A stretch of DNA of 64,000 nucleotides from Stegostoma tigrinum. Taxonomy: Eukaryota. The notes under the pieces were generated by a model. It made no database searches. It had not been told where the DNA came from and worked only from the letters and a program-made list of their open reading frames with translations. The position numbers were made by a program, and so were the translations under genes. The DNA is taken from positions 10,750,421 to 10,814,420 of the forward strand of contig NC_081397.1 in assembly GCF_030684315.1 (NCBI RefSeq), written 5' to 3'. This document shows positions 7,500 to 63,920 of this stretch, piece after piece. Each line of letters opens with the position of its first letter. Position 1 is the first letter of the stretch.

Positions 7500-8070
7500 T
7501 TTTGAAATTTGAGAAGAGATTCACTAGTATTTGCAGAGTATGTAAGGCTCGAGTCATATAGAAAGGATGGATAGGGGTCAAGATCCATAACGTTTCCTGT
7601 CCCTAAGATGCTGCTTGACCTGCTGGGTTCATTCAGTTCCACACCGTGTTTTCATGGATAGGCTGGGGCTTTTTTTCACTGGAGAGTAGGATGTTGAGAA
7701 GTCACCTTCTCACAGTTTGTAAAATACTGATGGGGTGAGACAGAGTTAATGGTCGTTGAACTTTGTTTGGGATGGAGGGAATAGAAAACCAGGGCGGACA
7801 TTTTAATGTTACAGGCGAGAGATTGAAAAAAAAAGACACGAGGGGCGTTTTTTAAACATAGAACACGGAAGGATGTGGAATAAACTACCTGTCGAAATGG
7901 TCGACGTGGCTATAATGACATTAAAACGACATTTGGAGAAGTGCATAAACACGACAGTTTTGAAAAGAAATAGGTCAGGGACAGGTAGATGGAACGAATT
8001 CAATTTGGTATTATACTCGGCCTCTACTGATTGGACTGAACGGTCTGTATCCTCACTGTATGACTCTGTG
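7500..8070 (+). mobile_element. Old CR1 3' fragment interrupted by a pLTR piece
   Basis: ggataggctggggctttttttcactggagagtaggatgttgaga is CR1 C-terminal sequence; an inverted paralogue lies at ~31690-32240. Confidence 0.7.
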
Positions 8071-8531
8071 GGAGAAAAAAAAAACAGAGACAAGCCATTG
8101 AGTTGGATGATCTGCCATTTTCATGGTGAGTGGGAGGAGAGGTGTGAAGGGCTGATGGGTGTTATTTGCCCAGTTGCTATTCTTTACGTTTATATGAGTG
8201 TGATTCCCAGAAACGATGTTGAGTATTGTCACTGCAATTGAAAAAAAAACTGATCTCGGTGATCAATGTAACTTCAAACCAGATGATTGGCTCTTGCAGC
8301 TGAATATGCAGCAGAACGAATCTCCGGCGCACAGACCTCGGAGAGTTTCACAATGACTGAGGAGAAAAACTACAACTAATTCCCTGGGTACCGGAGCACA
8401 GGCTGAAAGGGGGAGAAAGTACATCCTCCCACAGGTACATTTAGAGATATTTCTGCCCTGTGACTGTATGGATGTGAATATTGAGTCAGAGAGACTGTAG
8501 GAAAAGGGCGGGCGGGTTAGTCACACGTAAA

Positions 8532-8958
8532 TGTGCTTGTGTGTCCGCTCATATCATGATATTTCCACGTCTCTCTTGTGCAAATCAAAAAGATTTTCAT
8601 TTCAAATCATCCCCCTGCTCCTCCACTAAACCTCAAAGATAGAATTCAAGGCAATATATTTGTTGATTTCAAGATTTCAGTCTAAAAATGATGATAATGC
8701 CAGCGCTCAGCTCAGACAGCGCGATCAGTGCAGCAGCAAAATGCGGTAAAATCGACTACGGAGCCGTCAATTCGAGTGAAAACCTTTCAGCCGCAAACCT
8801 TCCCGTGTCAGGGTCAGGAACGATCGAGCCTGGCTCTCTGGAGATGCGGAATTGCAGAGGAATTGGAGAGTTTCTGCCGAGAGAGAAACACAGACAGGCA
8901 GCAGGAGCAGGGAGCTGAGGGCAGGTTGTCTCCGCGCCGTCCGCTCGCTGCCTTTAAG
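8532..8958 (+). promoter_or_regulatory. H1 promoter: TG box, AC (H1) box, CGTCCGC, TATA-like
   Basis: TGTGCTT 8532-8538, AAACACA 8886-8892, CGTCCGC 8938-8944, TTTAAG 8953-8958. Confidence 0.75.
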
Positions 8959-9038
8959 TTGCTCAGTGCCGCCACCAGCAGCTTCATTGCTGACCCAGTT
9001 CAGTCTGACAGAGAGAGATTCAGCGCAGAGTTCCCGAC

Positions 9039-9677
9039 ATGAGCGACAGTGCAGCCGCCGAAACGGCTCCTCCAGCCTCCGGCAGCACCAAACCCAAGTC
9101 TCCAAAGAAGAAGAAGGCGGCGGCTCCCAGGAAGAAACCAGCCGGTCCCGGGTTGGGCGAGCGGATTGTGAAGATTGTCGGGGAGAACAGCGATCGGAAG
9201 GGGACGTCTCTGGTCGCTATAAAGAAGGCGCTGCAGAGAAGCGGGGTCAATGTGGAGAAGCAAAATGCACAAATCAGGATGGCGACCAAGAGGTGCCTGG
9301 CGAAAGGCTCCCTGGTTCTGGTGAAGGGCCAGGGCGTCTCCGGCTCCTTCAAACTCGCAAAGAATCCAGTCAAGGCAAAAGTGGGAAAGAAGGCGAGACC
9401 AGCAGCAGCCGCCAAGAAAGCAGCCGTGAAGAAAACAACGGCCAAGAAGGTGGCAGCGAAGAAGTCCCCAGCCAAGAAAGCAACCGGCAAGAAAGCGGGC
9501 GGCAAGAAGGCAGCAACGCCGAAGAAACCGGCGAAGAAAGCAGCGCCGAAGAAAAAGACTCCCGTGAAGAAGGTGATAAAGACCAAGAGCCCCAAGGCCG
9601 CAAAGCCGGCCCCGAAATCGAGGAAACCGAAGGCCAAGCCCAAAGCGAAAGTGACCAAGAAAGCAGCAAAGAAATGA
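9039..9677 (+). CDS. H1: Histone H1, replication-dependent type, 212 aa
   Basis: Globular domain GTSLVAIKKAL...VKGQGVSGSFKL, K/A/P-rich tail, intronless, downstream stem-loop. Confidence 0.97.
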   Translation: MSDSAAAETAPPASGSTKPKSPKKKKAAAPRKKPAGPGLGERIVKIVGENSDRKGTSLVAIKKALQRSGVNVEKQNAQIRMATKRCLAKGSLVLVKGQGVSGSFKLAKNPVKAKVGKKARPAAAAKKAAVKKTTAKKVAAKKSPAKKATGKKAGGKKAATPKKPAKKAAPKKKTPVKKVIKTKSPKAAKPAPKSRKPKAKPKAKVTKKAAKK

Positions 9678-9713
9678 AGCAGTCCGTGTAACATGTAACA
9701 AACTGAACCCAAA

Positions 9714-9750
9714 GGCTCTTCTCAGAGCCGCCACATCTTTCAGGAGAGAG
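9714..9750 (+). terminator. Histone 3' stem-loop and HDE
   Basis: GGCTCT-TCTC-AGAGCC 9714-9729; purine-rich CAGGAGAGAG 9741-9750. Confidence 0.93.
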
Positions 9751-9775
9751 CTGAGCCTGGATCGAATGATCCCTG

Positions 9776-18619: not shown

Positions 18620-19478
18620 TGCGAGATCTGCAGCTCGGATAGCGGATAATGTTGAGCTGGCTTGCTTTTCTTCATATATTTCATCACCATGCTCAGTGGT
18701 ATCATCAGTGGAGCCTCCAATGAGTCAATGTTATTCCACGCCCTGTGGAATTTATACTGTATGGTCCATTATGGAGACTACTATCACTTCTGGTTTTGAT
18801 CTGTCTGAGTTTTCATTTTTGGGGTCCGATTCTATAATCTTGTTGATTGAAGTATGCATGGAAAACCATGCCTCTCGGAATTGCTGTGTGTCTGTGTTTG
18901 GCTTGGGCTACCATGGTTACTTTGTCCCATGTTAACCTGATGGCCTTTATTGTCTGAATATGTGATACATTCAGACAACCAAGGCCATCAGTTGAAATGG
19001 GGCAAAGTTACCATATTAAAAAGAAAGAACTGTGGATGCTGTAAATCAGGAACAAAAGACAGACTTGCTGGACAAGCTCTGCAGCTCAGCAGTAACTGGT
19101 TCTGAGGAAAGGTTACTGGACCCGCAAGGCTAACTCTCTGTTTTTCCCTTCACCGATGCTGCCTGACCTGAGCTTTTTCCAGCACCTTTTATTTTTGTTG
19201 TGTAAGGTAACCATAGCAGCCTAAGCCAAACATAGACATGTTAAGGAATTCCTAGAGACATTGTTCTCCACACAAACAAAGAATTGGACCCCATGTATAA
19301 ACCCATATAGATCAAAACTGAAATGACAGTACTCAGCATAACAGACCTGACAGTGCAAATTCCAAGCAGAGGAGAATCACATTGCATCAGCAGAGGCTCC
19401 ACTGATGATGTCACCTAGCATGGTGGCAAAACGTCCGAACAAAAACATGACAGCTCACTGACCAAGTCAACAACATCA
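18620..19478. mobile_element. Old Penelope fold-back with a nested pLTR hairpin (19018-19200)
   Basis: Inverted arms centred near 18962 (ttgtctgaat...attcagacaa); hammerhead-like CTGATGAtgtcacctagcatggtggcAAAACGTC at 19402-19435. Confidence 0.75.
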
Positions 19479-21722: not shown

Positions 21723-21752
21723 AGAGACCGTTCTGTAACTTGACAATCCAAA

Positions 21753-21792
21753 GGCTCTTTTCAGAGCCACCCACAACATCAGTGAAAGAGTC
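21753..21792 (+). terminator. Histone 3' stem-loop and HDE
   Basis: GGCTCT-TTTC-AGAGCC-ACCCA 21753-21773; AAAGAG 21785-21790. Confidence 0.96.
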
Positions 21793-22229
21793 TCAGACCT
21801 CGTTTTTGTTCGATTGATTTAATTTTAAATATACAGAGCCTGGGACTTCGCAACGTCAAATTTCAATCACATCATTCATTGATCCTGTAGTTGTCACAGT
21901 TCGATAGAAAATGAAATCCATCCTGCTGCTCCTGATTTCGGTAATATTTCCATTCAGAGCTGGCAGCCGATGAGCAGGAAGAAGTTATGATGAGCTTATA
22001 AATTACAATGTATGACATAATTGGAGAACAGAATAATCGTTTTGCAAATACGTTTTCCAGTCCCACTGCTTGTTGTTCACTGCCAATTTCACATCTCCCT
22101 TCATCGCATTAGAGAAAGCGAAAGTGACCCGGGACAGCACGTTGCAGGGTCATTTGCTTCTCATAATGAACGGCCGCTGACCCTCTGCGCATTAATCTCA
22201 GGTGCAGCTCATTTTCCTGCCTTTGATAT

Positions 22230-29621: not shown

Positions 29622-30050
29622 CTTTTGTGCTCCTGAGATGCTGCTTGGCCTGCTGTGTTCATCCAGCCTCACATTTTATTATCTTGGAATCTCCAGCATC
29701 TGCAGTTCCCATTATCTCTTCTTCCATTTCTACGTCAGTTTCTATTCCCCCAGCTGAATGAGACAAAATCATTTCTTGAGGATTGTGTGGTGAAGAGGGG
29801 TTTCAGAGCCTGTGTTTGACTCTTTGAGACTCTCTCCCTGCATGTGTGACAAGCAGACTGACATGAACTGACAAAGCACTAGAGCCTATGGTCTATGTGA
29901 GCAGGACCTCACACTCACATATTGTAGAGTATGGAAGAGGGGCTGAGTGTAAATCCGATAGGTAAATACGGAACGGTTATTCACATAAATCAGTGTCTAA
30001 ATTATTCCTGCACTCGGAGCTAGGACAGGGATCATTTGATCCGGGCTCAG

Positions 30051-30087
30051 CTCTCTCCTGAAAGATGTGGTGGCTCTGAGAAGAGCC
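30051..30087 (-). terminator. Histone 3' stem-loop and HDE
   Basis: Minus strand GGCTCT-TCTC-AGAGCC-ACCAC then CAGGAGAGAG. Confidence 0.93.
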
Positions 30088-30123
30088 TTTGGGTTCAGGT
30101 TGTTACATGTTACACCGACTGCA

Positions 30124-30747
30124 TCATTTCTTTGCTGCTTTCTTGGTCACTTTCGCTTTGGGCTTGGCCTTTGCCTTCGCCGATTTCGGGGCCGGCTTTG
30201 CGGCCTTGGGGCTCTTGGTCTTTTTCACTTTCTTCACGGGAGTCTTTTTCTTCGGCGTTGCTTTCTTCGCCGGTTTCTTCGGCGTTGCTGCCTTCTTGCC
30301 GCCCGCTTTCTTGCCTGTCGCTTTCTTCGCTGCCACCTTCTTGCTCGTTGTTTTCTTCACGGCTGCTTTCTTGGCGGCTGCTGCTGGTCTCGCCTTCTTT
30401 CCCACTTTTGTCTTGACTGGATTCTTTGCGAGTTTGAAGGAGCCGGAGACGCCCTGGCCCTTCACCAGAACCAGGGAGCCTTTCGCCAGGCACCTCTTGG
30501 CAGCCATCCTGATCTGTGCATTTTGCTTCTCCACATTGACCCCGCTTCTCTGCAGCGCCTTCTTTATAGCGACCAGAGACGTTCCCTTCCGATCGCTGTT
30601 CTCCCCGACAATCTTCACAATCCGCTCGCCCAACCCGGGACCGGCTGGTTTCTTCCTGGGAGCTGTCGCCTTCTTCTTCTTGGGAGACTTGGGTTTGGTG
30701 CTGGCGGAGGCTGGAGGAGCGGTTTCGGCGGCTGCACTGTCGCTCAT
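30124..30747 (-). CDS. H1: Histone H1, 207 aa, paralogue of 9039-9677
   Basis: Near-identical globular domain; 5-aa (SPAKK) deletion in the tail; stem-loop present. Confidence 0.97.
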   Translation of the reverse strand: MSDSAAAETAPPASASTKPKSPKKKKATAPRKKPAGPGLGERIVKIVGENSDRKGTSLVAIKKALQRSGVNVEKQNAQIRMAAKRCLAKGSLVLVKGQGVSGSFKLAKNPVKTKVGKKARPAAAAKKAAVKKTTSKKVAAKKATGKKAGGKKAATPKKPAKKATPKKKTPVKKVKKTKSPKAAKPAPKSAKAKAKPKAKVTKKAAKK

Positions 30748-30827
30748 GTCGGGAACTCTGCGCTGAATCTCTCTCTGTCAAACTGAACTGGGTCAGCAAT
30801 GAAGCTGCTGGTGGCGGCACTGAGCAA

Positions 30828-31254
30828 CTTAAAGGCAGCGAGCGGACGGCGCGGAGACAACCTGCCCTCAGCTCCCTGCTCCTGCTGCCTGTCTGTGTTT
30901 CTCTCTCGGCACAAACTCTCCAATTCCTCTGCAATTCCGCATCTCCAGAGAGCCAGGCTCGATCGTTCCTGACCCTGACACGGGAAGGTTTGCGGCCGAA
31001 GCGTTTTCTCTCGAATTGACGGCTCCGTTGTCGAGTTAAACGCATTTTGCTGCTGCACTGATCGCTCTCTCTGAGCTGAGCGCTGGCATTATCATCACTT
31101 TTGGGCTGAAATCTAGAAAGCAACAAACACGTTGCCTTGAATTCTAGCTTTGGGGTTTAGTGAGGGAGCAGGGGGATAAGTTGAATCGAAAATCTTTTTA
31201 ATTTGCTCAAGACAGACTGGGAAATATCATGATATGAGCGGACACACAAACACA
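30828..31254 (-). promoter_or_regulatory. H1 promoter: TG box, AC box, CGTCCGC, TATA-like
   Basis: Minus strand TGTGTTT 31254-31248, AAACACA 30900-30894, CGTCCGC 30848-30842, TTTAAG 30833-30828. Confidence 0.75.
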
Positions 31255-31689
31255 GTTACGTTAAACTCTCCCGACCGCCCTTTACCTACAGTCTCTCTGG
31301 CACAATATTCACATCCATACAGTCGCAGGCCAGAAATATCGCGAAATATAAATGTGGGCGGATATAATTTATTTTCCTTTCAGCCTTTGCTCCGATACCC
31401 AGGGAGTTCGTTGTAGTTTTTTTCTCTCTCCTCAGTCACTGTTAAACTCTCTGAGGACGGAGCGCCGGAGATTCGCTCTTCTCCTGATTCAGCTGCAAGA
31501 GCCAATCATCTGGTTTGAAGTTACATTGATCACCCAGGTCAATATTTTTCTGGGAATAAACAGGCAGAGAAACACAAATAATAGCAACTGAAACTAACAA
31601 ATCAGCCCTTCAAACCTCTCCTCCCAGTCCTCATGAAAATGGCAGGTCATCCAACTCAATAGCCTGTGTCCGTTTCTCTCTCATATCGA

Positions 31690-33450
31690 ATCATTCAGCA
31701 TATCTTCAGTCCAGACATAACATGCCGAATTTAATGCCGAACTGAACTAGTTCCACCCACCTGACCCTGGCCTGTTTCCTTTCAAACCTGTCATGTTCAC
31801 GTACTAATCCAAATGCCGTTTTAATGTTGTAATTGTAGCCACATCGACCATTTCGTCAGGAAGTTCATTCGACTTGCATCAGGCTCTGTGATAATAAAAC
31901 CCTCGCGTATATTTTTTTGATCTTTCTCCTGTCAGTTTAAAAATGTTCATGCCGCTCTTCAATTCCCCCCTTCCCAGGCAAAGGACAGCTACCATTGTGT
32001 CTAGGCCCGAAATGTCAGCTTTTGTACTCCTCAGAGGCTGCTTGGCCTGCTGTGTTCATTTAGCTCAACACTTTGTTTTCTTGGATTCTCCAGCATCTGC
32101 AGTTCTCATTATTTTATGAACTTCTATAAGCTGACTTTCAACATGCTACACTCGAGTGAAAAAAAAGACTCGCAGTCTATCCATCCTTTCCTTATAACTC
32201 GAACCTTACATACTCGAAATATTGGTGAACTTAATCTGAACCGTCTCCACCTTAATCCTGTCCTTCCTCTAACTGGCCGACCAGAACTGTTGGCAGTATT
32301 TCAGAAGTGGCCTCACCCAATGCCCTGTGTAACGTCAATGTGAATGCCACCTCCTAAACACAAAGGACTGAGCAGCGAAGGAAAGCGTGCCAAACACCTT
32401 CTTAACCATCCTGTTGAGGTGTGATGCAGACTGAAAAGAATTCTAGGTCCTTCTCTTCTACAACACTACCCATTAATTGTACAGGGCCTACCCTTGATTG
32501 TTGCACCAAAATGCAACACCTCACAGTTATCCAGTTGAACTCCATTTTGCAGCCCAACCGATTGGGTTATGATCCCTTTGTAATCTCAGAAAACCTTCTC
32601 CATTCACTATGATAATAACTTTGCGAGCATTCACAAACATGCTTACCATGCCTTCTATATTCTGATCCACATCATTTTTATAAATGACAAACAAAAACAG
32701 AGCCAGTACAAATCCCTGTGGAAACCACTGGTGACAGGCCCCCAGACTGAAAACAAAACAGCCCTCCACTTTCACTCTCTCTCTATTGCCATTAAGCCAA
32801 TTATACCTTGATTCTATTTCTTCACAATTGCTGCACACAATAACATTTTGAAATCATATAGTGTGTTGGATGGAGCTGATTTCTGCGGTCGAGAATTCCA
32901 GAGGCATACCGTTCTCTGAATGAAGAAAGCTCTCACTTTCTCAGCCCTAAATGTCCTATCCTATTTCCGAAACATGTAATTCCTACCATCAGGAATATTT
33001 TTCCAGCATTTATATTGTTTAAGTCTGCCAGTGGCTAACAGGTTTTTACAAAAATCCCTCATTTTTCTGAACTTTAGCACAGAAGTTCACAAACAGTTCA
33101 ATCTCTCCTTCCATCCCAGCAATCTGCCCACTAAAACTACCTTTATAGTAACACCATCCTTCCTCAGATAAGGAGGCCACACCTGCTGTCAGTATTCGAG
33201 ATGTTGTCTCACAGATACCCTGTTAAATTGCCACAATTTCTACTTTTCTCCTGTACTCTAATTACCTCTCCATGAAGGAAAACATGCCAGTTACCTTCCT
33301 CACTGTCTGCTACACCTACATGCTTAATTTCAGTGATTGGTTTGTGAGGACACCCAGATCTCATTGCAAATTCCACTGTGTCCAACTATCGACATCCAGA
33401 AAATAAAGTGCCTTCCTTTTATTTTGCTACCAACGTGTATAACCTTATAT
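31690..33450 (-). mobile_element. Decayed CR1 fragments with a pLTR piece (~32000-32112)
   Basis: WLNGNRERVKVEG, PQGFVL..LFVIYKND; partly the inverted paralogue of 7500-8070. Confidence 0.7.
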
Positions 33451-42590: not shown

Positions 42591-43245
42591 ATGCTGTTGT
42601 TGAATTGCTTGACAAGCTTGTTGTTGCTTGTTTACAGACATTTTGTCACCATACGACATAATACCTTCAGTGCACCTCTGGTGATGCATTGCTGTTGTGT
42701 CCTGCTGGCTGTTTATGTGCCGCAGTTTGCTGGGGTGGCTGACATCACTGCCGGATTTGTTTCTCAGTGGTTGGTATATGGGATCCTGCTCTATGCATTT
42801 GCTAATGGCATTCCAGTTTGAATATCAGGCCTCCAGGAATTCTCATGCATGTCTTTGGTTGACTTGTCCTCAGATGACTATGTTGTCCCAGTCAAATCGG
42901 TGTCCCACTTCGTCCATGTGTATTGAGATGAGTGATAGTTGGCCATGTCTCTTGGTAACTAGATGGTGTTTATGAATTGTGATGTCTAGCTTCCTACCAG
43001 TTTGGCCTTTGTAATGTTTTTGGCATCTGTCCACGATATCTCGCAAATAACGTTGGTTCTGTCAGTTATGGTTGTTGGATCGGGGTAATATGGTGGTCAT
43101 TTCTGATATGTTTTTCATGTATGGTGGGGAGACCAGTGTCTCTGGATGTGTTGTGTTATCCATTTGTCGTCTGTTGTGCAGGTGTTGAAGGACTACGCTT
43201 TTCAGGTAACCCCGTCATTTCTGTAGACACTGTATCAGTGTTCTT
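42590..43245 (-). mobile_element. Decayed Penelope (GIY-YIG C-terminus) fragment
   Basis: Minus strand HYKGQTGRKL and EFLEA...DPIYQPLRNKSG; same family as the 58340-58450 spacer. Confidence 0.7.
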
Positions 43246-52740: not shown

Positions 52741-53585
52741 GACCTGAAATATCAAGGGACATTGAGGATCTGGTCAGGAAAGGGAAGAAGGCATACATTG
52801 GGTTTAAACTATCAGGCTCAAGTGAATCTGTAGATAACTATAAAGAGTGGAGAAGCACACATCAGAGGGAAATCAGAAGAGCAAAAGATGGCATGAAATG
52901 GATCTGGCAGAAAAGGTTATAGAGGCTCCATGGCTATATTAAGACTAAAAGCTTGGCTGGGGAAAGGAGGTCCCCTTAAAGATCAGGTTGGTAGTCCATG
53001 TGTGAAGCCACAGCAGAAGGGGAGGATTTTTAACGAATATTTCTCCTCAGTGTTTGCTGAGGAGAGAATCATGGATACTGAGGAAATAAGGGAAGGAAGT
53101 GGAGATATTTTGTACCGCACATATATGACCAGAGAGTGAGTGTTTGCAGCCTTAGATCATATTTAAGATGGATGAATTCCCAAGGCCTGATAAAGTCCAT
53201 CCTCAGATTTTGTGGGAAGCTCAGAAAGAAATTGCAGATGCCCTTCCCTTGCTGAGATTTTAGCCTCATTTTTAGCCACTGCTGAAGTTCTGGATACTGG
53301 AGGGTGGCTAATGTTTTCCATTGTTTAAGAGATGGAGCTAAGACAAGCCAGGGAACTTCCAGCCAGTGAGCCTAACATCAGCAGTAAGCAAGTTATTGGA
53401 GAGGATTCCGATTGACAGGATCAATGAACACAGTCAAGGTATGATTATGGATAGTCATCACGGATTTGTGTGCGGGAAGGCACATCTGACAAATTTTTGA
53501 GCTTTTCAAAGAGGGAACCAAGTGGAGGGCAGTGGATGTACTCTGTATGGACTTTAGTAAGGCCTTTGACAAGGTCCTGCACGGC
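52735..53585 (+). mobile_element. CR1 ORF2 fragment, 3'-truncated at the Tx1 junction
   Basis: Ends in MDFSKAFDKV. Confidence 0.8.
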
Positions 53586-56500
53586 AGAGCCCCTCTCACC
53601 GCCAGCCAAGCAATGTCCTTGTGCTTGTTTTTAAAATTCTGGTGATGACGCATTCTGCTGAACGACTTTGGCAGTCAGCGTGGGCAACGACACGACGGGA
53701 TCCACATTCTCCTTTTCCCGAAGGGTCTCGAGGATATTACGTGCTGACCACTGCCTGGCGGCCTTGTGGTCAAAGGTGTTTCAAAAATTTCTCCACGAAG
53801 GACAGGTGGTACGGGACGGTCCAACTACGCAGAGCGTTCTGCGGCAACGAAGCCAGGCCCATCCATCGCAACACAGGGGACAGGTAGAACCTTGGTATGC
53901 AGTGACACTTGGTGTTTGCGTACTGAGGATCTACGCACAGCTTGATGCAGCCACACACAAAGGTAGCCATCAGGGCGAGGGTGGCGTTCGGTACACCCTT
54001 TCCCCTGTTTTCCAGGTCTTTGTACATGGTGTCCCTGCGGACCTGGTCCATCCAGCCTCGACCCCCAAATGAAGTGGAAGACGGCCCGGGTGACTGCAGC
54101 GGCGCAGGTCCAGAGAATAGGCCAGGCCTGCGCCACATAGAACAGTACCCAAAGCCCCTCTCACCTGACAAACAGGTTCTTACCCGTGATGGAGGGGGAC
54201 CGGAGCGTCCACCTGTCCAGCTTCTGCTTCAGTTTGGTGATATGCTCCTCCCAAGTCTTAGTGCACACCTCACCTCCACCGAACCAAACACCCAGCACCT
54301 TCAAGTAGTCTGTCCTGACGGTGAAGGGGACGTAGGAGCGGTCGTCCCAGTTCCGGAAGAACATGGCCACGCTCTTACCCCTATTGACTTTGGCACCCGA
54401 GGCCAGTTCAAACTGGCCGCTGATGTCCAACAGCGTACTCACCGACCGAAGATCGGTGCAGAAGACGGCGACATCGTCCATGTACAGGGAGGTTTTGACC
54501 TGAAGGCCTCCGCTGCCTGGGATAGTCACGCCCTTCAGGCTCACGTCCTCCCTGATGTGGCCAAGGGCCCAATACTGCGCACAAAAAAGGCAGGAGAGAG
54601 CGGGCAGCCCTGCCTGACTCCAGATCTGACGGGAAAACTGTCTGATTCCCACCCATTGATCAAGACTAGGCTAAAGATGTTGGTGTAGAGCAGCCGGATC
54701 CAATTGCGGATGCCCTCCCCGAACCTCAATTTGGAGAGCATGTCCCTCATGTAAGCATGAGAGACCCTGTCGAAGGCCTTCTCCTGGTCCAGGCTGACAA
54801 GGCAGGTGTCCACCCTCCTGTCCTGCACGTAGGCGATCATATCCCTGATCAGCGCGACGCTTTCAGCGATCTTCCTGCCCGGCACAGCACAGGTTTGGTC
54901 AGGGTGAATCGCCGACTCCAGGACAGACCTAACCCGGTTGGCTACGACCTTGGCCAGGATTTTGTAGTCCACGTTCAATAATGAAATGGGACGCCAATTC
55001 TTAATTTCTTCCCTCTCCCCCTTCCTCTTGTAAATGAGGGTGATGATGCTCTTCATCATGGACTGGCACATTTCCCCTGCCCGAAGCGCACTATCGTACA
55101 CCTCCAGCAGGTCCTGGCCGACCAGGTCCCACAGAGCGGAATACAGCTCGATCGGTAAGCCATTGCTCCCAGGAGTCTTATTCCACAACAAGGAATTGAG
55201 GACTCTAGTCAGCTCATCCAGGGATATCGGCTGGTCCAGCCACTCCGTCGTGCCGTTGTCTAAGGCCTCTGCGATAGATCACAGGAACGACTTGGAGGCC
55301 GTGCTGTCTGTCGGCTTCACGTCGTGCAGTCCGGCATAGAAGGATCTGCTGATCCTCAAAATGTCGGGCCGAGAACGACGTCACCGAGCCATCATCCTCC
55401 TTCAGCCGGCTGAGCACAGAGCTTTCCTGGTGCACCTTCTGAAAGAAGAAATGCGAGCACGTCTCGTCCTGCTCCACGGAACAGACCCTGGACCGGAAGA
55501 TTATCCTGGAGGCCTCCGCGGCGAAGAGCGAGACTTGCTGGCCCCTCACCTCGGAGGTCCTCCGTGACTTCGACTGCCATCGACTGCAGAAGGAGCAAGT
55601 TCTGCACCCTTTTCTGGAGTAGCGACAGCTTTCCCCACCTCTCTCTCGCCTTCCGAACACCCTTGAGGACAAAGAACCTCTTGATGTTCTCCTTCACTGT
55701 CTCCCACCAGTTGCCCGGAGTCTCAAAGAGGGGTTTCACGGTTCTCCAACTGGCGTACTCCCTCTTAAGCTCCTTGACATTCTCTGGGGTCAACAGAGTC
55801 GTGTTGAGCTTCCACGTTCCCTTGCCGGCCTGCTGGTCATCCTGTAAGTGACAGTCGGCCAGCAGGAGGCAGTGGTCAGAGAAGAACACCGGCTCGATGT
55901 CGGTGGAGCTGAGCGAGAACGCCCGTGACACAAACAGGAAGTCTATCCTTGAGCGGATAGACCCGTCTGGCCGTGACCAGGTGCATCTCCGCTGGGCTCC
56001 GTCAGCAGGGGTGCAGAAGACGTCGAGCAGATTGGCGTCATTCATCGTGCCCATCAGGAATCTGGACATGACGACCAGTTGACTCCCCCCACCCGCTATC
56101 CCCACGCCGGATCTTCCATCTGCATCAATGATGCAGTTGAAGTCTCCGCCTAGGATGACCGGCCTGGACGTCGCCAGCAGGGGTGGAAGCCACTGCAGGA
56201 CGGCCAACTGCTCACTCCGTACCGCTGGGGCGTACACATTGATCAGCCTCCGGAGAGCGTTCCTGTCGGTGACATCAACCACTAGGTGGCGACCCCCCAT
56301 CACCTCCTGAACTTGAGAGATGGCGAAGTCGCGCCCCCGCAGCAGAATAGCCAGGCCCGAGGAGCGACAGTCGTTACCACCCTACCAGATCAAAGGCCCA
56401 CAGGTCCAGGCGCTGGACCATTTCCCTGTGCCTGCTGAGGTGCAGTATCCCACAGTCCTGTAGAAACAGGAGGTCCGCCTTGACGGTGGTCAGGTAGGCC

Positions 56501-58206
56501 AACATGGACACACATCTTGCGGTGGACTTGACGCTGCGCACATTAATGCTCGCAACTCATACCCCCATTGTGGGCAGTGACCACAGTACCCTCCCCAAGT
56601 TCAAGGTCCAGCCCATCCATCTGTCCCTTCATGCCCATTGCCCGGGATAACTGCTGGACGCTCTCCAGGCTCAGGAATCCGTGTGTGCTGTCTTCTGGGT
56701 GGCATCCACCCGGCGGGGGTTGGGAGGCAGGAGAGTCTGGCTCTGGGTCAGGCTGGGGACATGCTGTTTCCTTCTGCCCACCTGAAAATTCCAGGGGGCC
56801 CTCCAGGGCGCCAGCGGCACGTGGCTGGGTGTCGGAGAGAGCCTCAGGACGCCTCCCATCATCTGGAAGCGGGGTGCTGCTTTCCTTCTCCCTTGAGATC
56901 TATAGCTTCTGCTTTGGGCGGGCCGCCTCCGAATCTCCCTCGTCAGACGAGCTCTTATAGCCCCCCTGCAGCTGTCTCTTTCCGCCTGATGGTTGCGGTG
57001 ACTGGGCCTGCAGGCGCGCCCTCCTCCTTGCTTTCCGGACCGTCGCCCATCCCTGGGTCACCTGACGCCTCCTCCATCGACTCCGGGTTGTCGGGGTCGG
57101 GGTCGGGGTGGGGCGGTGTCTACAGGGGCGCTTTGCTGGCCTCGGGTCCGTCCTGCGGGGCTGGGCCCTCCTGCACGGCCTGGCCCTCCTGCACATTTGG
57201 AGGGGGGTGGGGGGGGCCTTGCAGGGCCCTGGTGCCTTCCTCTCCTCCGGGGGGGTGGGGAGTTGGGGGCTTGCCCTGCAATGCCCCTGCCGGCGACCTG
57301 GGCGTAGGTGGACCCCGCCGCAGGCATGCCCTATAGTGCTGGCCCGCTTCCCCACAAAGGTTGCAGCTTTTTTCTTGTGGGCAATCCTTTGCAAGGTGTC
57401 CCTCCTCCCTGCAGTTCCTGCAGATGGTGGCTTTGCAGTCGGCAGCCACATGACCTGACCTACCACAGGCATGGCAGACTCTGGGTTGCCCTGCGTAGGT
57501 CAGGTAGCCCTTGCTCCTGCCGATCGCGAAGCTGGACGGTGGGTGTACGATGTTCCCGTCCACACACCTGTCCACAGTGTCACCTTGACCTGCCTCTTCC
57601 TGGTCCAGATCCCAAAGGGGTCCATGATGTTGGTGAGGTCCCCTTCCACCTTCACGTACCTTCCAAGGAAGGTCAGGACATCAACAGCTGGCACATGCGG
57701 GTTGTACATGTGTACAGTCACCATACGGCTCCTCTGCGCCGGCATCACGAACAGCGGGACAGCAGTCAGTACAGAGAGGGGGCCCTCACCTCCATTCTCC
57801 TTGAAAACCTGCAGGAAGCGCTCGCAAAGCTTGGCACTCCTGAAGGTTACATCGTAAAAACCTCCTCCGGGGAAACCCTGCAGGCAGCAAATGTCCGCAG
57901 CAGCGAACCCACAACAGTCCAACAGGACCCTCTTCATGAAGAAGGTGCGGTCCACAGGTGCACCTTCATCCACCTTCTTCACAGAAACACGGATGGTGTT
58001 CTGGACCCCCAGACCTGGGGCACGAGCACTCGCCGCAGCCATCGTTGCAGGTTGGCTGCTCCCCTGAACCAGCGTTAGGCTGAAGCCAGCATTAAGATCC
58101 ACCGGTTGCAAGGGTGCACAGCCAACGAGACGTCTTCCTTCCACCTCCAACACAGTCGCGCTCTCCTCTTCTCGGTCCACAAAAGAGTGGGTCTTTATTT
58201 TGCCCC
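53584..58206 (-). mobile_element. Tx1-clade LINE, left copy (5'-complete, 3'-truncated, frameshifted)
   Basis: ORF1 from ATG 58042 with three CCHC knuckles; ORF2 from 56568 (INVYAP, GGDFN, SDH, NWRPISLLNVDYKI, LDQEKAFDRV, GVRQGCPLSP, LYMDD). Confidence 0.95.
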
Positions 58207-58584
58207 GGATGTAAGCTGGTTCACTGAGCGGGAAGGTTCGTTCCCAGATGTTTTGTCACCATTCTAGGTAACATCATCAGTGAGCCTCCAGTGAAGCGCT
58301 GGTGTGATGTCCCGCTTTCTATTTATCTGTTTGGGTTTCCTTGGGTTACTGATGTCATCTCCTGCATTGGTGATGTCATATCCTGTTCTTTTTCTCAGGG
58401 GATGGTAGATAGGCTCCAAACCAATGCAACTCAATCCAAACAAACGCAGCCTAAACCTAAACAGATAAATAGAAAGCGGGAAATAACACCAGTGCTTCAC
58501 CGGAGGCTCACTGATGATGTTACCTAGAATGGTGACAAAACATCTGGGAACGAACCTTCCCGCTCAGTGAACCAGCTTACATCC
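58207..58584. mobile_element. Penelope fold-back pLTR with two decayed hammerhead motifs
   Basis: Inverted arms around a spacer encoding LEPIYHPLRKRTG; tca-CTGATGA-tgttacc-tagaat-ggtgac-AAAACATC-tg at 58508-58546 and its mirror at 58245-58283. Confidence 0.85.
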
Positions 58585-61500
58585 GGGGCAAAATAAAGAC
58601 CCACTCTTTTGTGGACGGAGAGGAGGAGAGCACTGTGTTGGAGGTGGGAGGAAGACGTCTCGTTGGCTGTGCACCCTTGCAACCGGTGGATCTTAATGCT
58701 GGCTTCAGTCTAACGCTTGATCAGGGGAGCAGCCAACCTGCAACGATGGCTGCGGCGAGTGCTCGTGCCCCAGGTCAGGGGGTCCAGAACATCATCCGTG
58801 TTTCTATGAAGAAGGTGGATGAAGGTGCACCTGTGGACCGCACCTTCTTCATGAAGAGGGTCCTGTTGGACTGTTGTGGGTTCGCTGCTGCGGACATTTA
58901 CTGCCTGCACGGTTTCCCCGGAGGAGGTTTTTACGATGTAACCTTCAGGAGTGCCAAGCTTTGCGAGCGCTTCCTGCAGGTTTTCAAGGAGAATGGAGGT
59001 GAGGGCCCCCTCTCTGTACTGACTGCTGTCCCGCTGTTCGTGATGCCGGCGCAGAGGAGCCGTATGGTGACTGTACACACGTACAACCCGCATGTGCCAG
59101 CTGTTGATGTCCTGACCTTCCTTGGAAGGTACGTGAAGGTGGAAGGGGACCTCACCAATATCATGGACTCCTTTGGGATCTGGGCAAGTAAGAGGCAGGT
59201 CAAGGTGATGCTGAGGACAGGCGTGGACGGGAACATCGTACACCCACTGTTCATCTTCGCGATCGGCAGGAGCAAGGGCTACCTGACCTACGCAGGGCAA
59301 CCCAGAGTCTGCCATGCCTGTGGTAGGTCAGGTCACGTGGCGGCCGACTGCAAAGCCACCATCTGCAGGAACTGCAGGGAGGAGGGACACCTTGCAAAGG
59401 ATTGCCCACAAGAAAAAAAGCTGAAACCTTTGTGGGGAAGCGGGCCGGCTCTATCGGGCATGCCTGCGGCGGGGGACCACCTACACCCGGGTTTCTGGCA
59501 GGGCCGATGTGGGGCAAGCCCCCACGGAGGAGAGGAAGGTACCAGGGCCCTGCAAGGACGCCCTAACGAGCAGGAGGGCCCAGCCCTGCAGGATGGACCA
59601 GAGGCCAGCAAAGCGCCCCTGCAGGCTCGGCTCCCCTGCAACAACCCGGAGTCAATGGAGGTGGTGACAGGTGACCCAGGGGAGTGGACCCAGGTGAGAA
59701 GGAAGGGTTGGCGAGGGCCCCGGCACTGCAAACATCAGGCAGAAAGAGGCAACTACAGGCGGACTATAAGAACTCTTCTGACGAGGGGGATTCAGAGGAG
59801 GCCCGCCCAAAGCAGACGCTAAAGATCAAGGGAGAAGGAAAGTAGCACCCCGATTCCTGGTAACGGGAGGTGTCCTGAGGCTCCGTCCGACACACAGCCA
59901 CGCTCTGCTGGGGCCCTGGAGGCCGCTGCGGAACCTTCAGGCAGGAAGCAGGAAACAGCGTGTCGGCAGCCTGACCCAGAGCCGGACTCTCCTCCCTCTG
60001 TACCCCCGATAGGGGGACGCCACCCAGAAGGCAGCAAAGATGGTTTCCTGAGCCTAGAGAGCGCCCAGCAGTTCGCCCGGGCAATGGGCATGAAGGGACA
60101 GATGGCTTGCTGGACCTTGGACTTGGGGAGGGTAATGCGGTCACTGCCCACAATGGGGGTATGGGTTGCGAGCATTAATGTGTGCAGCGTCAATTCCACC
60201 ACAAGATGTGTGTCCACGTTGGCCTACCTGACCACAGTCAAGGCAGACCTCCTGTTTCTGCAGGAGTGTGGGATACTGCACCTCAGCAGGTACTGGAAAT
60301 GGTCGGGCGCCTGGACCTGTGGGCCTTCAATCTAGTCGGGGGGGTAACGACTGTCGCTCCTCGGGCCTGGCTATTCTGCTGCGGGGGCGCAACTTCACCA
60401 TCTCTCAAGTTCAGGAGGTGGTGGGGGTGGCACCTCCGTGTGGTTTATGTCAGCGACAGGAACGCTGCCCTGAGGCTGATCAACGTGTACGCCCCAGCGG
60501 TACGGAGTGAGCGGTTGGCCGTCCTGCAACGGCTTCCATCCCTGCTGGCTACGTCCAGGCCGGTCATCCTAGGCGGAGACATCAACTGCATCATCGATGC
60601 AGATGGAAGATCCAGCGTGGGCACAGCGTGTGGGGGGGAGTCAACTGGACGTCACATCCAGATTCACGATGGGCACGGTGAAGGACGCCAAGCGGCTCGG
60701 CATATTCAGCACCGCTGCAGACGGAGCGCAGCGGAGATAGACCCATCTGGCCGCGACCAGGTGTATCCGCTCAATGATAGACTTCCTGTTTGTGTCACGG
60801 GCGTTCTCGCTCAGGTCCACCGGTGTCGAGTCGGTGTTCTTCTGACCACTGCCTCCTGCTGGCCGACTGTCACTTACAGGATGACCAGCAGGCCGGCAAG
60901 GGGACATGGAAGCTCAACACAACTCTGACCCCAGAGAACGTCGAGGAATACGCTGGTTAGAGAACCGTGAAACCCCTCTGAGTCTCCGGGCGACTGGTGG
61001 GAGACAGTGAAGGAGAACATCAAGAGGTTCTTTGTCCTCAAGGGTGTCTGGAAGGCGAGAGAGAGGCAGGGAAAGCTGTAGCGGCTCCAGAAAAGGATGC
61101 AGAAGTCGATGGGGGTCGATGTCACGGAGGACCTCCGTGAGGTGAGGGGCCAGCAAGTCTCGCTGTTCGGCGCGGAGGCCTCCAGGATAATCTTCCGGTC
61201 CAGGGTCCGCTCCGTGGAACAGGACGAGATGTGCTCGCATTTCTTCTTTCAGAAGGTGCACAAAGAGAGCTCGGTGCTTAGCCGGCTGAAGGAGGATGAT
61301 GGCTCGGTTACGTCATCTCGTCCCGACATTTTAAGGATCAGCAGATTCTTCTATGCCAGACTGTAGGACGCGAAGCCCATGGACAGCATAGCCGCTGCGT
61401 TGTTCCTGTCGTCTATCACGAAGATCTTGGACAACAGCACAAAGGAGTGGCTGGACGGGCCAATATCACTGGACGAGCTGACTAGAGTCCTCAATTCCTT

Positions 61501-63828
61501 GGTGTGGAATAAGACTCCTGGGAGCAACGGCTTACTGGTCGTGCTGTATTCCGCTCTGTGGGACCTGATCGGCCAGGACCTGCTGGAGGTGTACGATAGT
61601 GCGCTTCGGGCAGGGGAAATGTGCAAGTCCATGAGGAAGGGCATCATCACCCTCATTTACAAGAGGAAGGGGGAGAGGGAAGAAATTAAGAATTGGCGTC
61701 CCATTTCATTATTGAACGTGGACTACAAAACCCTGGCCACGATCATAGCCAACCGGGTCAGGTCTGTCCTGGAGTCGGCGATTCACCCTGACCAAACCTG
61801 TGCTGTGCCGGGCAGGAAGATCGCTGAGACCCTCGCGCTGATCAGGGATATGATCGCCTACATGCAGGACAGGAGGGTGGACACCTGCCTTGTCAGCCTG
61901 GACCAGGAGAAGGCCTTCGACAGGGTCTCTCATGCTTACATGAGGGACATCCTCTCCAAATTGAGGTTCGGGGAGGGCAGCCGCAATTGGATCCGGCTGC
62001 TCTACACCAACATTGTTCGCGCAGTCTTGATCAATGGGTGGGAATCAGACAGTTTTCCCGTCAGATCTAGAGTCAGGCAGGGCTGCCCGCTCTCTCCTGC
62101 CTTGTTCGTCTGCTGTGTGGAGCCCTTCGCCGCATCCATCAGGAAGGACGTGAGCCTGAAGGGCGTGACTATCCCAGGCAGCTGAGGCTTTCAGGTCAAG
62201 ACCTCCCTGTACATGGACGATGTCGCCATCTTCTGCACTGATCGTCGGTTGGTGAGGTCGGCTGTTGGACATCTGCGGCCAGTTTGAACAGGCCTCGGGT
62301 GCCAAAGTCAATCGGGGTAAGAGCGAGGTCATGTTCTTCGGGAACTGGGACGACCGCTCCTTCATCCCCTTCACCGTCAGGACAGACTACCTGAAGGTGC
62401 TGGGTGTTTGGTTTGGTTGAGCTGGGGCGTTCACTAAGACTTGGGAGGAGCGTATCACCAAATTGAAGCAGAAGCTGGGCAGGTGGACGCTCCGGCCCTT
62501 CTCCATCGCGGGTAATAACCTGGTTGTCAGGTGCGAGGGGCTTTCAGGACTGTTGTATGTGGCGCAGGCCTGGCCTATTCCCTGGACCTGCGCCGCTGCG
62601 GTCACCCAGGCCATCTTCCACTTCATTTGGGGATCGAGGATGGACCAGGTCCGCAGGGACACTATGTACAAAAACCTGGAAAATGGGGGAAAGGGCGTAC
62701 CGAGCGCCACCCTCGCCCTGATGGCTACCTTTGTGTGCGGCTGCATCAAGCTGTGCGTAGATCCTCAGTATGCAAACGCCAAGTGTCACTACTTACTGAG
62801 GTTCTACCTGTCCCCTGGTGTTGCGAAGGATGGGCCTGGCCTTGTTGCCGCAGAACGCTCCGAGTCGTTGGACCGTTCCGTACCACCTGTCCTTAGTGGA
62901 GAAATTTTTGAAAGGAAACACCTTTGACCACAAGGCCGTCAGGCAGTGGTCAGCATGTAGTATCCTCGGGACCCTTCGGGAAAAGGAGAGGGTGGATCCC
63001 GTCGTGTGGTTCCCCACGCAGACTGCCAAAGTCGTTTGGCAGAATGCCTCATCACCATAACTTTCAAACAAGCGCAAGGACATTGCTTGGCTGGCAGTGA
63101 GAGGGGCTCTGACAGTGAGATCCTTTATGCATGCCCAGAATCTCTGCACCACCGCATGCTGCCCTCGAGATGGCTGCCGGGGTGGGGGGGGGACGAGACC
63201 GTCGATCACCTCCTTCTGGAGTGTGCCTATGCCCAGGAGGTCTGGAGGGGGATACAGTGGTATTTGTCGAGGTTCGTCCCGAGCAGCTCCGTGACACTAG
63301 ACTCCGTGCTCTACGGGCAGTTTCCCAAGACGCACACCGAGACCAACATCAACTGCGCCTGGAGGACCATCAATGCGGTGAAAGATGCTGTTTAGTCTGC
63401 CCGCAACTTGCTGGTCTGCCAGCTGAAAGAACTGACCCCGACCGAGTGTTGCAGACTGGCGCTCTCCAAGGTCCAGGACTACGTGCTGAGGGACGCTCTA
63501 AAGCTTGGGGCAGCCGCCACCAAGGCGCGGTGGGGAAAGACCACCGTATGAAACCCCTCGTCCAGAATGTGAAAAAGGGCCCTATCTGGTAACTGGGCCC
63601 AGCTGGTGCCTTCCTCAACTGGTCAGGGGCCAATGGGGACTGTGCGGGTGGACGACTGCCGGGGCATTTTCTTTGCTTTGTTTTTTTTCTTCTTTGTTTG
63701 TTTTTTTCCTTTAGTTGGTGTATGTACCCCCTGGGTAACCCGAAGCGGTCTGCATGACTGGGTAGGTGTGTAAATGTTTTATTTTTTGTACATCTTATGA
63801 ATAAAGTATATTTTTTTAAATAAAAAAA
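58585..63828 (+). mobile_element. Tx1-clade LINE, full-length but disrupted
   Basis: ORF1 ATG 58746 (ZCCHC3-like N-terminal domain plus CCHC knuckles); ORF2 60153-63551 (APE, RT, ETVDHLLLEC zinc motif); AATAAA 63800; A-tail to 63828. Confidence 0.96.
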
Positions 63829-63920
63829 TGGTGACGAAACGTCTGAAAACTAACCTTCCAGCTTAGCGAGCAAACTCACATTCAGAACCTCAAACTGAGC
63901 TACAAATCTTCTCAAAACTC
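63829..63920 (+). mobile_element. Penelope pLTR 3' half directly after the Tx1 poly(A)
   Basis: TGGTGACGAAACGTCTG...cagaacctcaaactgagctacaaatcttctcaaaact; homologous to 58530-58584. Confidence 0.8.

What the first reader, a model, noticed from the sequence alone, without database searches (positions are those of the whole stretch)
53584..63920. Tx1 LINEs apparently targeted to the hammerhead region of Penelope pLTRs (a retrotransposon of a retrotransposon)
Seen: two diverged Tx1 copies point away from each other, and both begin at the same pLTR nucleotide (cttacatcc|ggggcaaaataaagacc at 58584/58585 and 58207/58206). After the right copy's poly(A), pLTR sequence resumes within the hammerhead stem II region (TGGTGACGAAACGTC, 63829), about 55 nt upstream of the 5' junction point. 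That 55-nt segment therefore flanks both ends but differs at about 13 positions, too many for a simple recent TSD. Known: Tx1-clade elements are often sequence-specific for repeats or snRNA genes; PLE pLTRs carry minimal hammerheads; R2 uses a ribozyme and target-derived leader. Inference: this family inserts into Penelope pLTRs and may borrow their promoter or ribozyme to define its 5' end.
Basis: partly seen in the sequence, partly recalled or inferred. Interest (0 to 1): 0.8.

Follow-up and report, generated by a model that had tools for sequence, protein, structure and literature searches.

The report
Tx1 LINE targeting Penelope hammerheads
A jumping gene with about two thousand copies in this vertebrate genome inserts almost only at one spot inside the ribozyme of another jumping gene, and it carries a mutated copy of that spot on its own front end, probably to attach itself cleanly; a new target for a family already known for precise targeting.

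Summary
Confirmed and extended genome-wide. The two copies are a Tx1-clade LINE (5.3 kb). The pair is not two independent events: it recurs seven times on one contig and its arms share rare variants. Dispersed copies prove the targeting: 1,840 of 2,158 tails are followed by the same Penelope sequence, with the junction at AT|GG or ATG|G, the start codon inside hammerhead stem II. The 55-nt repeat is no ordinary TSD: the 5' copy is an element-borne leader with fixed variants (1,778 matches on Tx1, 2 on Penelope). Leader variants reach upstream of the ribozyme cut and break its core (intact in 5 of 54), so the borrowed-ribozyme idea is not supported; co-transcription plus leader/target annealing, as in earwig R2, fits better. 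Most copies are 5'-complete (33 of 39). Truncated ones sit in Penelope-like head-to-head pairs, so occasional copying by Penelope's machinery is possible. Tx1 families that target other transposons are published; this target was not found in print by my searches, but this scan noted Penelope-targeting Tx1 in two other genomes.

The parts
53585..58201 (-). Left Tx1 copy, body; 3' part missing, frames broken
58202..58261 (-). Left copy: element-borne leader derived from the Penelope target (mirror of 58530-58589)
58243..58284 (-). Left minimal hammerhead motif (CUGAUGA, stem II, worn GAAAC-GUC)
   Evidence: read from the sequence; no Rfam hammerhead match
58262..58426 (-). Left arm of a head-to-head Penelope insertion, upstream half of the target
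58427..58452 (.). Spacer at the centre of the head-to-head Penelope insertion
58453..58529 (+). Right arm of the Penelope insertion, upstream half of the target
58507..58548 (+). Right minimal hammerhead motif: stem I 58507-58510, CUGAUGA 58511-58517, stem II 58519-58536, AAAACAUC in place of GAAACGUC, cut position after 58544
   Evidence: sequence; motif layout from PMC6765202 passages and recall
58530..58589 (+). Right copy: element-borne leader; 9 of its 13 differences from the 3' flank are family-wide leader sites. In the family the leader reaches at least the position equal to 58514
58590..63828 (+). Right Tx1 copy, body, full length, ending in a short A tail
58746..59822 (+). ORF1, open part: two ZCCHC3-type RNA-binding domains and CCHC knuckles
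60153..63551 (+). ORF2 (APE endonuclease, RT, zf-RVT), broken here; open over 1,138 codons in copy L136
63829..63920 (+). Downstream half of the Penelope target, from the insertion point to the long Penelope tail

Best explanation
A Tx1-clade LINE whose APE endonuclease nicks the bottom strand of a Penelope pLTR at AT|GG or ATG|G, the putative Penelope start codon in hammerhead stem II, and reverse-transcribes its RNA there (TPRT). Its RNA begins upstream, in pLTR sequence, so it carries a leader: a fossil duplication of the target (about 60 nt downstream of the nick plus at least 17 nt upstream) that has drifted from Penelope. The cDNA of this leader anneals to the target's top strand and primes the second strand; the switch point varies, so each 5' flank is a target/leader mosaic and almost only 5'-complete copies are joined. 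The leader rebuilds the site, so younger copies insert in front of older ones. The ribozyme in the leader is mostly broken, which would keep the homology from being cut off. Shown: fixed 3' junction, element-borne leader, its extent, rarity of truncation, tandem and one-arm insertions. Inferred: the nick, the promoter, annealing, and any benefit of the broken ribozyme. The window pair is one head-to-head Penelope insertion with Tx1 in both arms, later copied with its segment.
For: 1,840 of 2,158 tail motifs have GTGA 2-8 nt later; 30 of 30 tails picked by tail motif alone are followed by the pLTR. Junctions fall in two classes one base apart with A tails mostly 7-10 nt (78 distinct ends), mixed within the youngest clade. 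Leader variant followed by Tx1: 1,778; followed by Penelope: 2. Leader-type alleles: 55 of 55 at three downstream sites, 50 of 55 at the GG site, 35 of 55 at GUC-2 (3' flanks 12 of 73, p 5e-8), 26 of 50 at CUG(U)UGA (empty sites 1 of 50). CUGUUGA sites are leader-type in 90 of 100 listed, CUGAUGA sites in 7 of 100. Empty sister arms show the target allele where the filled arm shows the leader allele (L133, L138, L166). Two different subfamilies sit in the two arms of one Penelope insertion (M158, L144). 7 of 78 tails run into another Tx1 leader. 33 of 39 sampled copies are 5'-complete. Precedent: earwig R2 carries a diverged 22-bp downstream target duplication through co-transcription (PMC3774820).
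Against: No RNA or biochemical data. Both arms are filled in 12 of 22 sampled tails with an inverted arm, against about 12% site occupancy (occupancy is a rough figure from exact-match counts that favour young empty sites). None of 6 truncated copies is joined to the upstream target half, as ordinary TPRT truncation would give. The allele gradient could reflect several source leaders instead of variable switch points. Part of the core damage is CpG decay (intact ignoring CpG changes: 13 of 54, against 10 of 16 empty sites).
Confidence: 0.8

Rival explanations
1. Second route, for a minority of copies: Penelope's own RT/GIY-YIG protein copies read-through RNAs that contain Tx1 plus the downstream pLTR, giving head-to-head pairs truncated inside Tx1 (hitchhiking).
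For: 7 head-to-head loci have an arm that starts inside Tx1 with no upstream target half (M143, M145, M149, M072, L153, L154, L165). M143, M145 and L165 show one short and one long Penelope tail with 10-14 bp outer TSDs, like 7 of 9 empty pairs. Arms share rare variants above the 99th percentile of background in 7 of 7 such pairs but only 2 of 6 pairs with both upstream halves. Penelope RT starts at the tail sites downstream of the hammerhead (PMC11167929).
Against: Empty pairs span a median of about 600 bp for both arms (16 pairs), whereas truncated Tx1 arms are 1.1-5.1 kb and none of 30 tails had under 1.1 kb of Tx1. Arms of M145 and M149 are not tree sisters and M145 arms differ in junction class. 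Long inverted repeats are known to suffer central deletion and arm conversion (established knowledge), which gives the same picture.
Confidence: 0.35
2. All or most copies descend from one old insertion amplified as a Penelope-Tx1 composite; there is no continuing target choice.
For: Both flanks are nearly invariant; no ordinary truncated insertion among 39.
Against: Filled arms beside empty sister arms (10 of 22), different subfamilies in sister arms, tandem inserts with different leaders, two junction classes inside one young clade, and ORF2 open in young copies.
Confidence: 0.05
3. One reading: the rebuilt hammerhead cuts the co-transcript at GUC and so makes the Tx1 5' end.
For: The leader's AA to GG change adds a pair to stem I (C-G in 49 of 54 against 1 of 51). 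6 of 55 5' flanks are target-type up to GUC-2 and leader-type just after the cut.
Against: Element-borne alleles lie upstream of the cut; both core boxes are intact in only 5 of 54 5' flanks; even Penelope does not need the cut in vitro and shows no RNA ends there (PMC11167929).
Confidence: 0.12
4. The 55-nt repeat is a long true TSD that has decayed, or the pair is an assembly artefact.
For: The segment does flank both ends.
Against: The differences are the same in all copies and directional. The pair occurs in 7 slightly different segmental copies.
Confidence: 0.02

Closest known systems
Tx1L of Xenopus laevis, and crocodilian Tx1-Mar, Tx1-8_Crp, Tx1-4_AMi, Tx1-9_AMi (PMC4494074, passages)
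   Same: Tx1-clade LINEs that insert into another transposon (piggyBac-type Tx1D, Mariner-N4, LTR elements, Harbinger); tandem inserts occur; transcription from the flanking target was proposed.
   Different: Target here is a Penelope-like retroelement; one site at one-base precision where Tx1-Mar uses two broad regions; a diverged target-derived leader. 'Penelope' does not occur in that paper's main text.
Kibi, Koshi, Keno (Tx1 clade; PMC4494074)
   Same: Sequence-specific APE LINEs of vertebrates. ORF2 here is 36% identical to BAD04856.1 and BAC82621.1, which I recall, untested, as deposits of that survey.
   Different: Their targets are microsatellites or U2 snRNA genes. This ORF2 groups with amphibian proteins (45-47%) apart from those fish proteins.
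R2 elements with target-derived 5' sequence, above all earwig R2 (PMC3774820, passages)
   Same: Works like it: a diverged duplication of downstream target is carried in the RNA, and cDNA/target annealing is proposed to give uniform 5' junctions.
   Different: R2 has a restriction-like endonuclease, one ORF, an rDNA target and an active HDV-like ribozyme of its own; here the ribozyme belongs to the target and is mostly broken in the leader.
Penelope/Poseidon elements such as PAc of Anolis (PMC11167929, first two of four parts read; PMC8557442, passages)
   Same: The target: C-terminal GIY-YIG, hammerhead with the ORF start in stem II, two tail end points, inverted truncated arms.
   Different: No full-length Penelope copy was fetched, so the clade and the start codon are inferred.

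Membership tests
Tx1 clade (L1 group) LINE | ORF1 with RNA-binding domains and CCHC knuckles | tested here: met
   PF23057, PF23058, PF00098
Tx1 clade (L1 group) LINE | ORF2 with N-terminal APE endonuclease, RT and C-terminal zinc-binding domain | tested here: met
   PF03372, PF00078, PF13966 in L136; best solved relative is human L1 ORF2
Tx1 clade (L1 group) LINE | RT phylogeny inside the Tx1 clade against named reference families | tested here: inconclusive
   Tree of 28 proteins has no named Tx1L, Keno or L1 reference and is the quick tree; hits include one named 'transposon TX1 uncharacterized 149 kDa protein', 37% over 80%
Tx1 clade (L1 group) LINE | A-rich 3' end and target preference (over 20% of flanks by the criterion of PMC4494074) | tested here: met
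   1,840 of 2,158; A tails
Tx1 clade (L1 group) LINE | Endonuclease nicks the target site | not testable with these tools
   needs an in vitro assay
Penelope-like element (target) | RT followed by C-terminal GIY-YIG | tested here: met
   GIY-YIG frame ends at the pLTR, weak Pfam hit E 0.0026 below cut-off; RT E 9e-9 upstream in L092
Penelope-like element (target) | Inverted truncated arms and optional 30-40 bp tail | tested here: met
   described in PMC8557442
Minimal type I hammerhead | CUGAUGA, stem II, GAAA, palindromic stem III, UH cut site, stem I | tested here: met
   Met by motif in empty sites (40 of 63 with both boxes, partly selected by pattern; 7 of 16 unselected); no Rfam hammerhead model matched
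Minimal type I hammerhead | Core intact in the Tx1 leader | tested here: not met
   5 of 54; the window's two copies read AAAACAUC
Minimal type I hammerhead | Self-cleavage | not testable with these tools
   needs an RNA assay
R2 clade | Restriction-like endonuclease and rDNA target | tested here: not met
   APE domain; Penelope target. Analogy of mechanism only

The most novel reading that the evidence does not exclude
A two-way hyperparasite: the LINE aims at the start codon and ribozyme of a Penelope element, keeps a deliberately disarmed copy of that ribozyme as a homology arm that lets almost only full-length copies integrate, and, because it sits just upstream of Penelope's RT start sites, is also carried to new loci by Penelope's own machinery.
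Probability: 0.25. Interest if true: 0.75.

Novelty: new variant of a known kind. Interest (0 to 1): 0.52.

Why it matters
It adds a Penelope-like retroelement to the targets of Tx1-clade LINEs and gives a natural experiment on the least understood step of LINE insertion, 5' joining: thousands of copies with marked leader alleles record where cDNA met target, and empty sister arms supply the pre-insertion sequence. A young copy with an open ORF2 makes an APE-type, near base-precise, mostly full-length inserter testable. An insertion at the start codon of a full-length Penelope would silence it; whether that happens was not seen.

Tried and rejected
Rfam: no hammerhead match in the window at gathering score or in an empty site by E-value; the motif is read by eye. 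RNA: no RNA holder listed. Contigs of three DNA runs laid on the pair's centre: no piece spans it, uninformative. 'Locked hairpin' idea (leader changes pair the two core boxes: U-A at one core position in 22 of 54 against 1 of 51): folding energy did not differ (median -11.7 against -12.0, p 0.69), so kept only as a lead. One search's pattern missed the usual body start and served only to count leader-plus-Penelope; one search gave the other count. One empty-arm comparison (L169) failed to align. Literature: (listings) showed no paper on Tx1 in Penelope; Repbase, Dfam and subscription journals were not searchable, and no supplements were read, so a named family may exist there. Look-up of earlier findings by place and by sequence found nothing. 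No full-length Penelope or further empty sites could be fetched.

Full report
OBSERVATION. The window is G000:C56:10750421-10814420 of a 3.2 Gb genome; I take the host for a vertebrate, probably a shark, from recall of its repeat content and without a test. Two copies of one LINE lie back to back, 53585-58206 (-) and 58585-63828 (+), 88% identical. The stated junction words and the resumption of pLTR sequence at 63829 are there, and the two 55-nt segments differ at 13 positions. The right copy has an ORF1 with ZCCHC3-type RNA-binding domains and zinc knuckles and a broken ORF2; a young copy elsewhere (L136) has ORF2 open over 1,138 codons with APE, RT and zf-RVT domains. Its nearest proteins are amphibian (45-47%) and fish (36-38%), one named as TX1 149 kDa protein; a quick tree without named references groups it with the amphibian ones.

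THE PAIR IS NOT THE EVIDENCE. The same back-to-back pair occurs at 7 places on C56, with the 378-bp centre 98-100% identical: segmental copies. The arms are tree sisters (support 0.99) and share 18 variants absent from other sampled copies. The centre is a head-to-head Penelope insertion with arms of about 200 and 130 bp, the usual form of this Penelope here and in print (PMC8557442, passages).

THE TARGET. An uninterrupted 29-mer across the site occurs 7,920 times. Upstream of it are GIY-YIG and RT frames, so it is the end of a Penelope-like element. It holds a minimal hammerhead by motif: CUGAUGA, stem II, GAAAC-GUC, stem I; Rfam has no matching model. In the Anolis element the ORF starts in stem II and RT starts at two tail sites downstream (PMC11167929, first two of four parts read); here an ATG lies in stem II and copies end at two tail points, so the site is by inference the start codon.

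TARGETING. 30 of 30 best 3' matches and 30 of 30 tails chosen by tail motif alone are followed by the pLTR. Genome-wide 1,840 of 2,158 tail motifs have GTGA 2-8 nt later; the rest were not inspected, and point changes would remove some. Among 78 distinct ends outside C56 the junction is almost always GGTGA or GTGA after an A tail of 6-12 nt. Independent insertion is shown by filled arms beside empty sister arms, by different subfamilies in the two arms of one Penelope insertion (M158, L144), and by 7 of 78 tails that run into another Tx1's leader, mostly young copies in front of older ones.

THE 55-NT SEGMENT IS A LEADER. Its differences are directional: the 5' copy has one allele set, while 3' flanks match empty sites. 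9 of the window's 13 differences are such sites, 1 is a CpG change, 3 are private. The leader word is followed by Tx1 1,778 times and by Penelope twice, so it is no living Penelope subfamily. Leader alleles are in 55 of 55 flanks far downstream, 50 of 55 just after the GUC cut, 35 of 55 two bases before the cut (3' flanks 12 of 73) and 26 of 50 in the CUGAUGA box, 17 nt upstream of the insertion point (empty 1 of 50). Genome-wide, CUGUUGA sites (628) are leader-type in 90 of 100 listed and CUGAUGA sites (9,479) in 7 of 100. In L133, L138 and L166 the empty sister arm has CUGAUGA and the filled arm CUGUUGA. So the element's RNA starts upstream of both the nick and the ribozyme cut. Both core boxes are intact in 5 of 54 5' flanks against 7 of 16 unselected empty sites; ignoring CpG changes, 13 of 54 against 10 of 16. 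This speaks against a 5' end made by the hammerhead, though 6 of 55 flanks fit a switch near the cut and the leader adds a pair to stem I.

FULL-LENGTH BIAS. Of the first 43 tails on C1 I fetched upstream DNA for 39 (the other 4 are tandem or sister partners of sampled tails). 33 are 5'-complete with leader and upstream Penelope; 6 are truncated, none joined to the upstream target half. Exact 5' and 3' words are about equally common (1,778 and 1,704).

MECHANISM. Best reading (0.8): TPRT at a fixed nick, RNA co-transcribed from the pLTR, and 5' joining by annealing of leader cDNA to the target, with a variable switch point. The published parallel is R2: target sequence left on the RNA gives uniform junctions, and earwig R2 propagates a diverged 22-bp downstream duplication (PMC3774820, passages). 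The nick, promoter and annealing are inferred.

AN UNEXPLAINED EXCESS. Among sampled tails with an inverted arm, 12 of 22 have Tx1 in the sister arm too, against roughly 12% occupancy. Seven head-to-head loci (six from the sample, plus M072) have an arm that begins inside Tx1; three show Penelope's short/long tails and 10-14 bp TSDs, and in 7 of 7 the arms share rare variants above the 99th background percentile, against 2 of 6 pairs with both upstream halves. Copying of a composite RNA by Penelope would give this (0.35 as a second route). Against it, empty pairs span only about 600 bp, no short Tx1 fragments were seen, and two of these pairs are not tree sisters; deletion and conversion in long palindromes is the alternative.

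WHAT IS KNOWN. Tx1-clade families that target piggyBac, Mariner, LTR and Harbinger elements are described (PMC4494074, passages; PMC4640811, passages). Six searches (listings only) showed none aimed at Penelope; Repbase, subscription papers and supplements were out of reach. This scan noted Penelope-targeting Tx1 in two other genomes, unchecked, with no DNA look-alike to this family.

VERDICT. Real, and stronger than the window alone shows: a new target and an R2-like leader in a clade known for targeting. New variant of a known kind; interest 0.52.

Noticed in passing
L089-L097, L100; M143, M145, L144, L165: Head-to-head Penelope insertions have one short and one long tail in 7 of 9 empty pairs, with 8-14 bp outer TSDs in several. 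This suggests one RT start site per DNA strand; the tail at one end only is already described (PMC8557442).
   Followed up: partly
L158 (- strand tail): A Tx1 tail is followed by a leader-type segment that continues as Penelope tail: probably a solo leader left by recombination between leader and 3' flank. Two exact cases genome-wide.
   Followed up: partly
window 21748-21793 (+), 30048-30092 (-): Histone 3' stem-loops; 7748-9775 and 30026-31996 form an 86% inverted repeat. The window seems to lie in a duplicated histone cluster.
   Followed up: no
window 19380-19435 (+), 42635-43100 (-): Older, diverged Penelope ends with worn hammerheads and no Tx1 insert.
   Followed up: no
window 52900-53584: The left Tx1 copy stops against an RT fragment of another LINE, CR1-like by recall.
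   Followed up: no
L176:2049-7236: In another segmental copy the left arm carries a 5.2-kb insertion with a frame open over 1,002 codons.
   Followed up: no
L065, L066, L070, L071, L074, L144, L147, L151, L152, L155, L160, L165, L169: Large internal deletions are common in these Tx1 copies although 5' truncation is rare.
   Followed up: no
L167: A truncated Tx1 whose 3' flank stops right at the hammerhead GUC and continues into a different Penelope-type sequence; its inverted arm is an empty Penelope.
   Followed up: no
L096:3-990: A 329-codon frame of a second, different GIY-YIG Penelope-type family.
   Followed up: no
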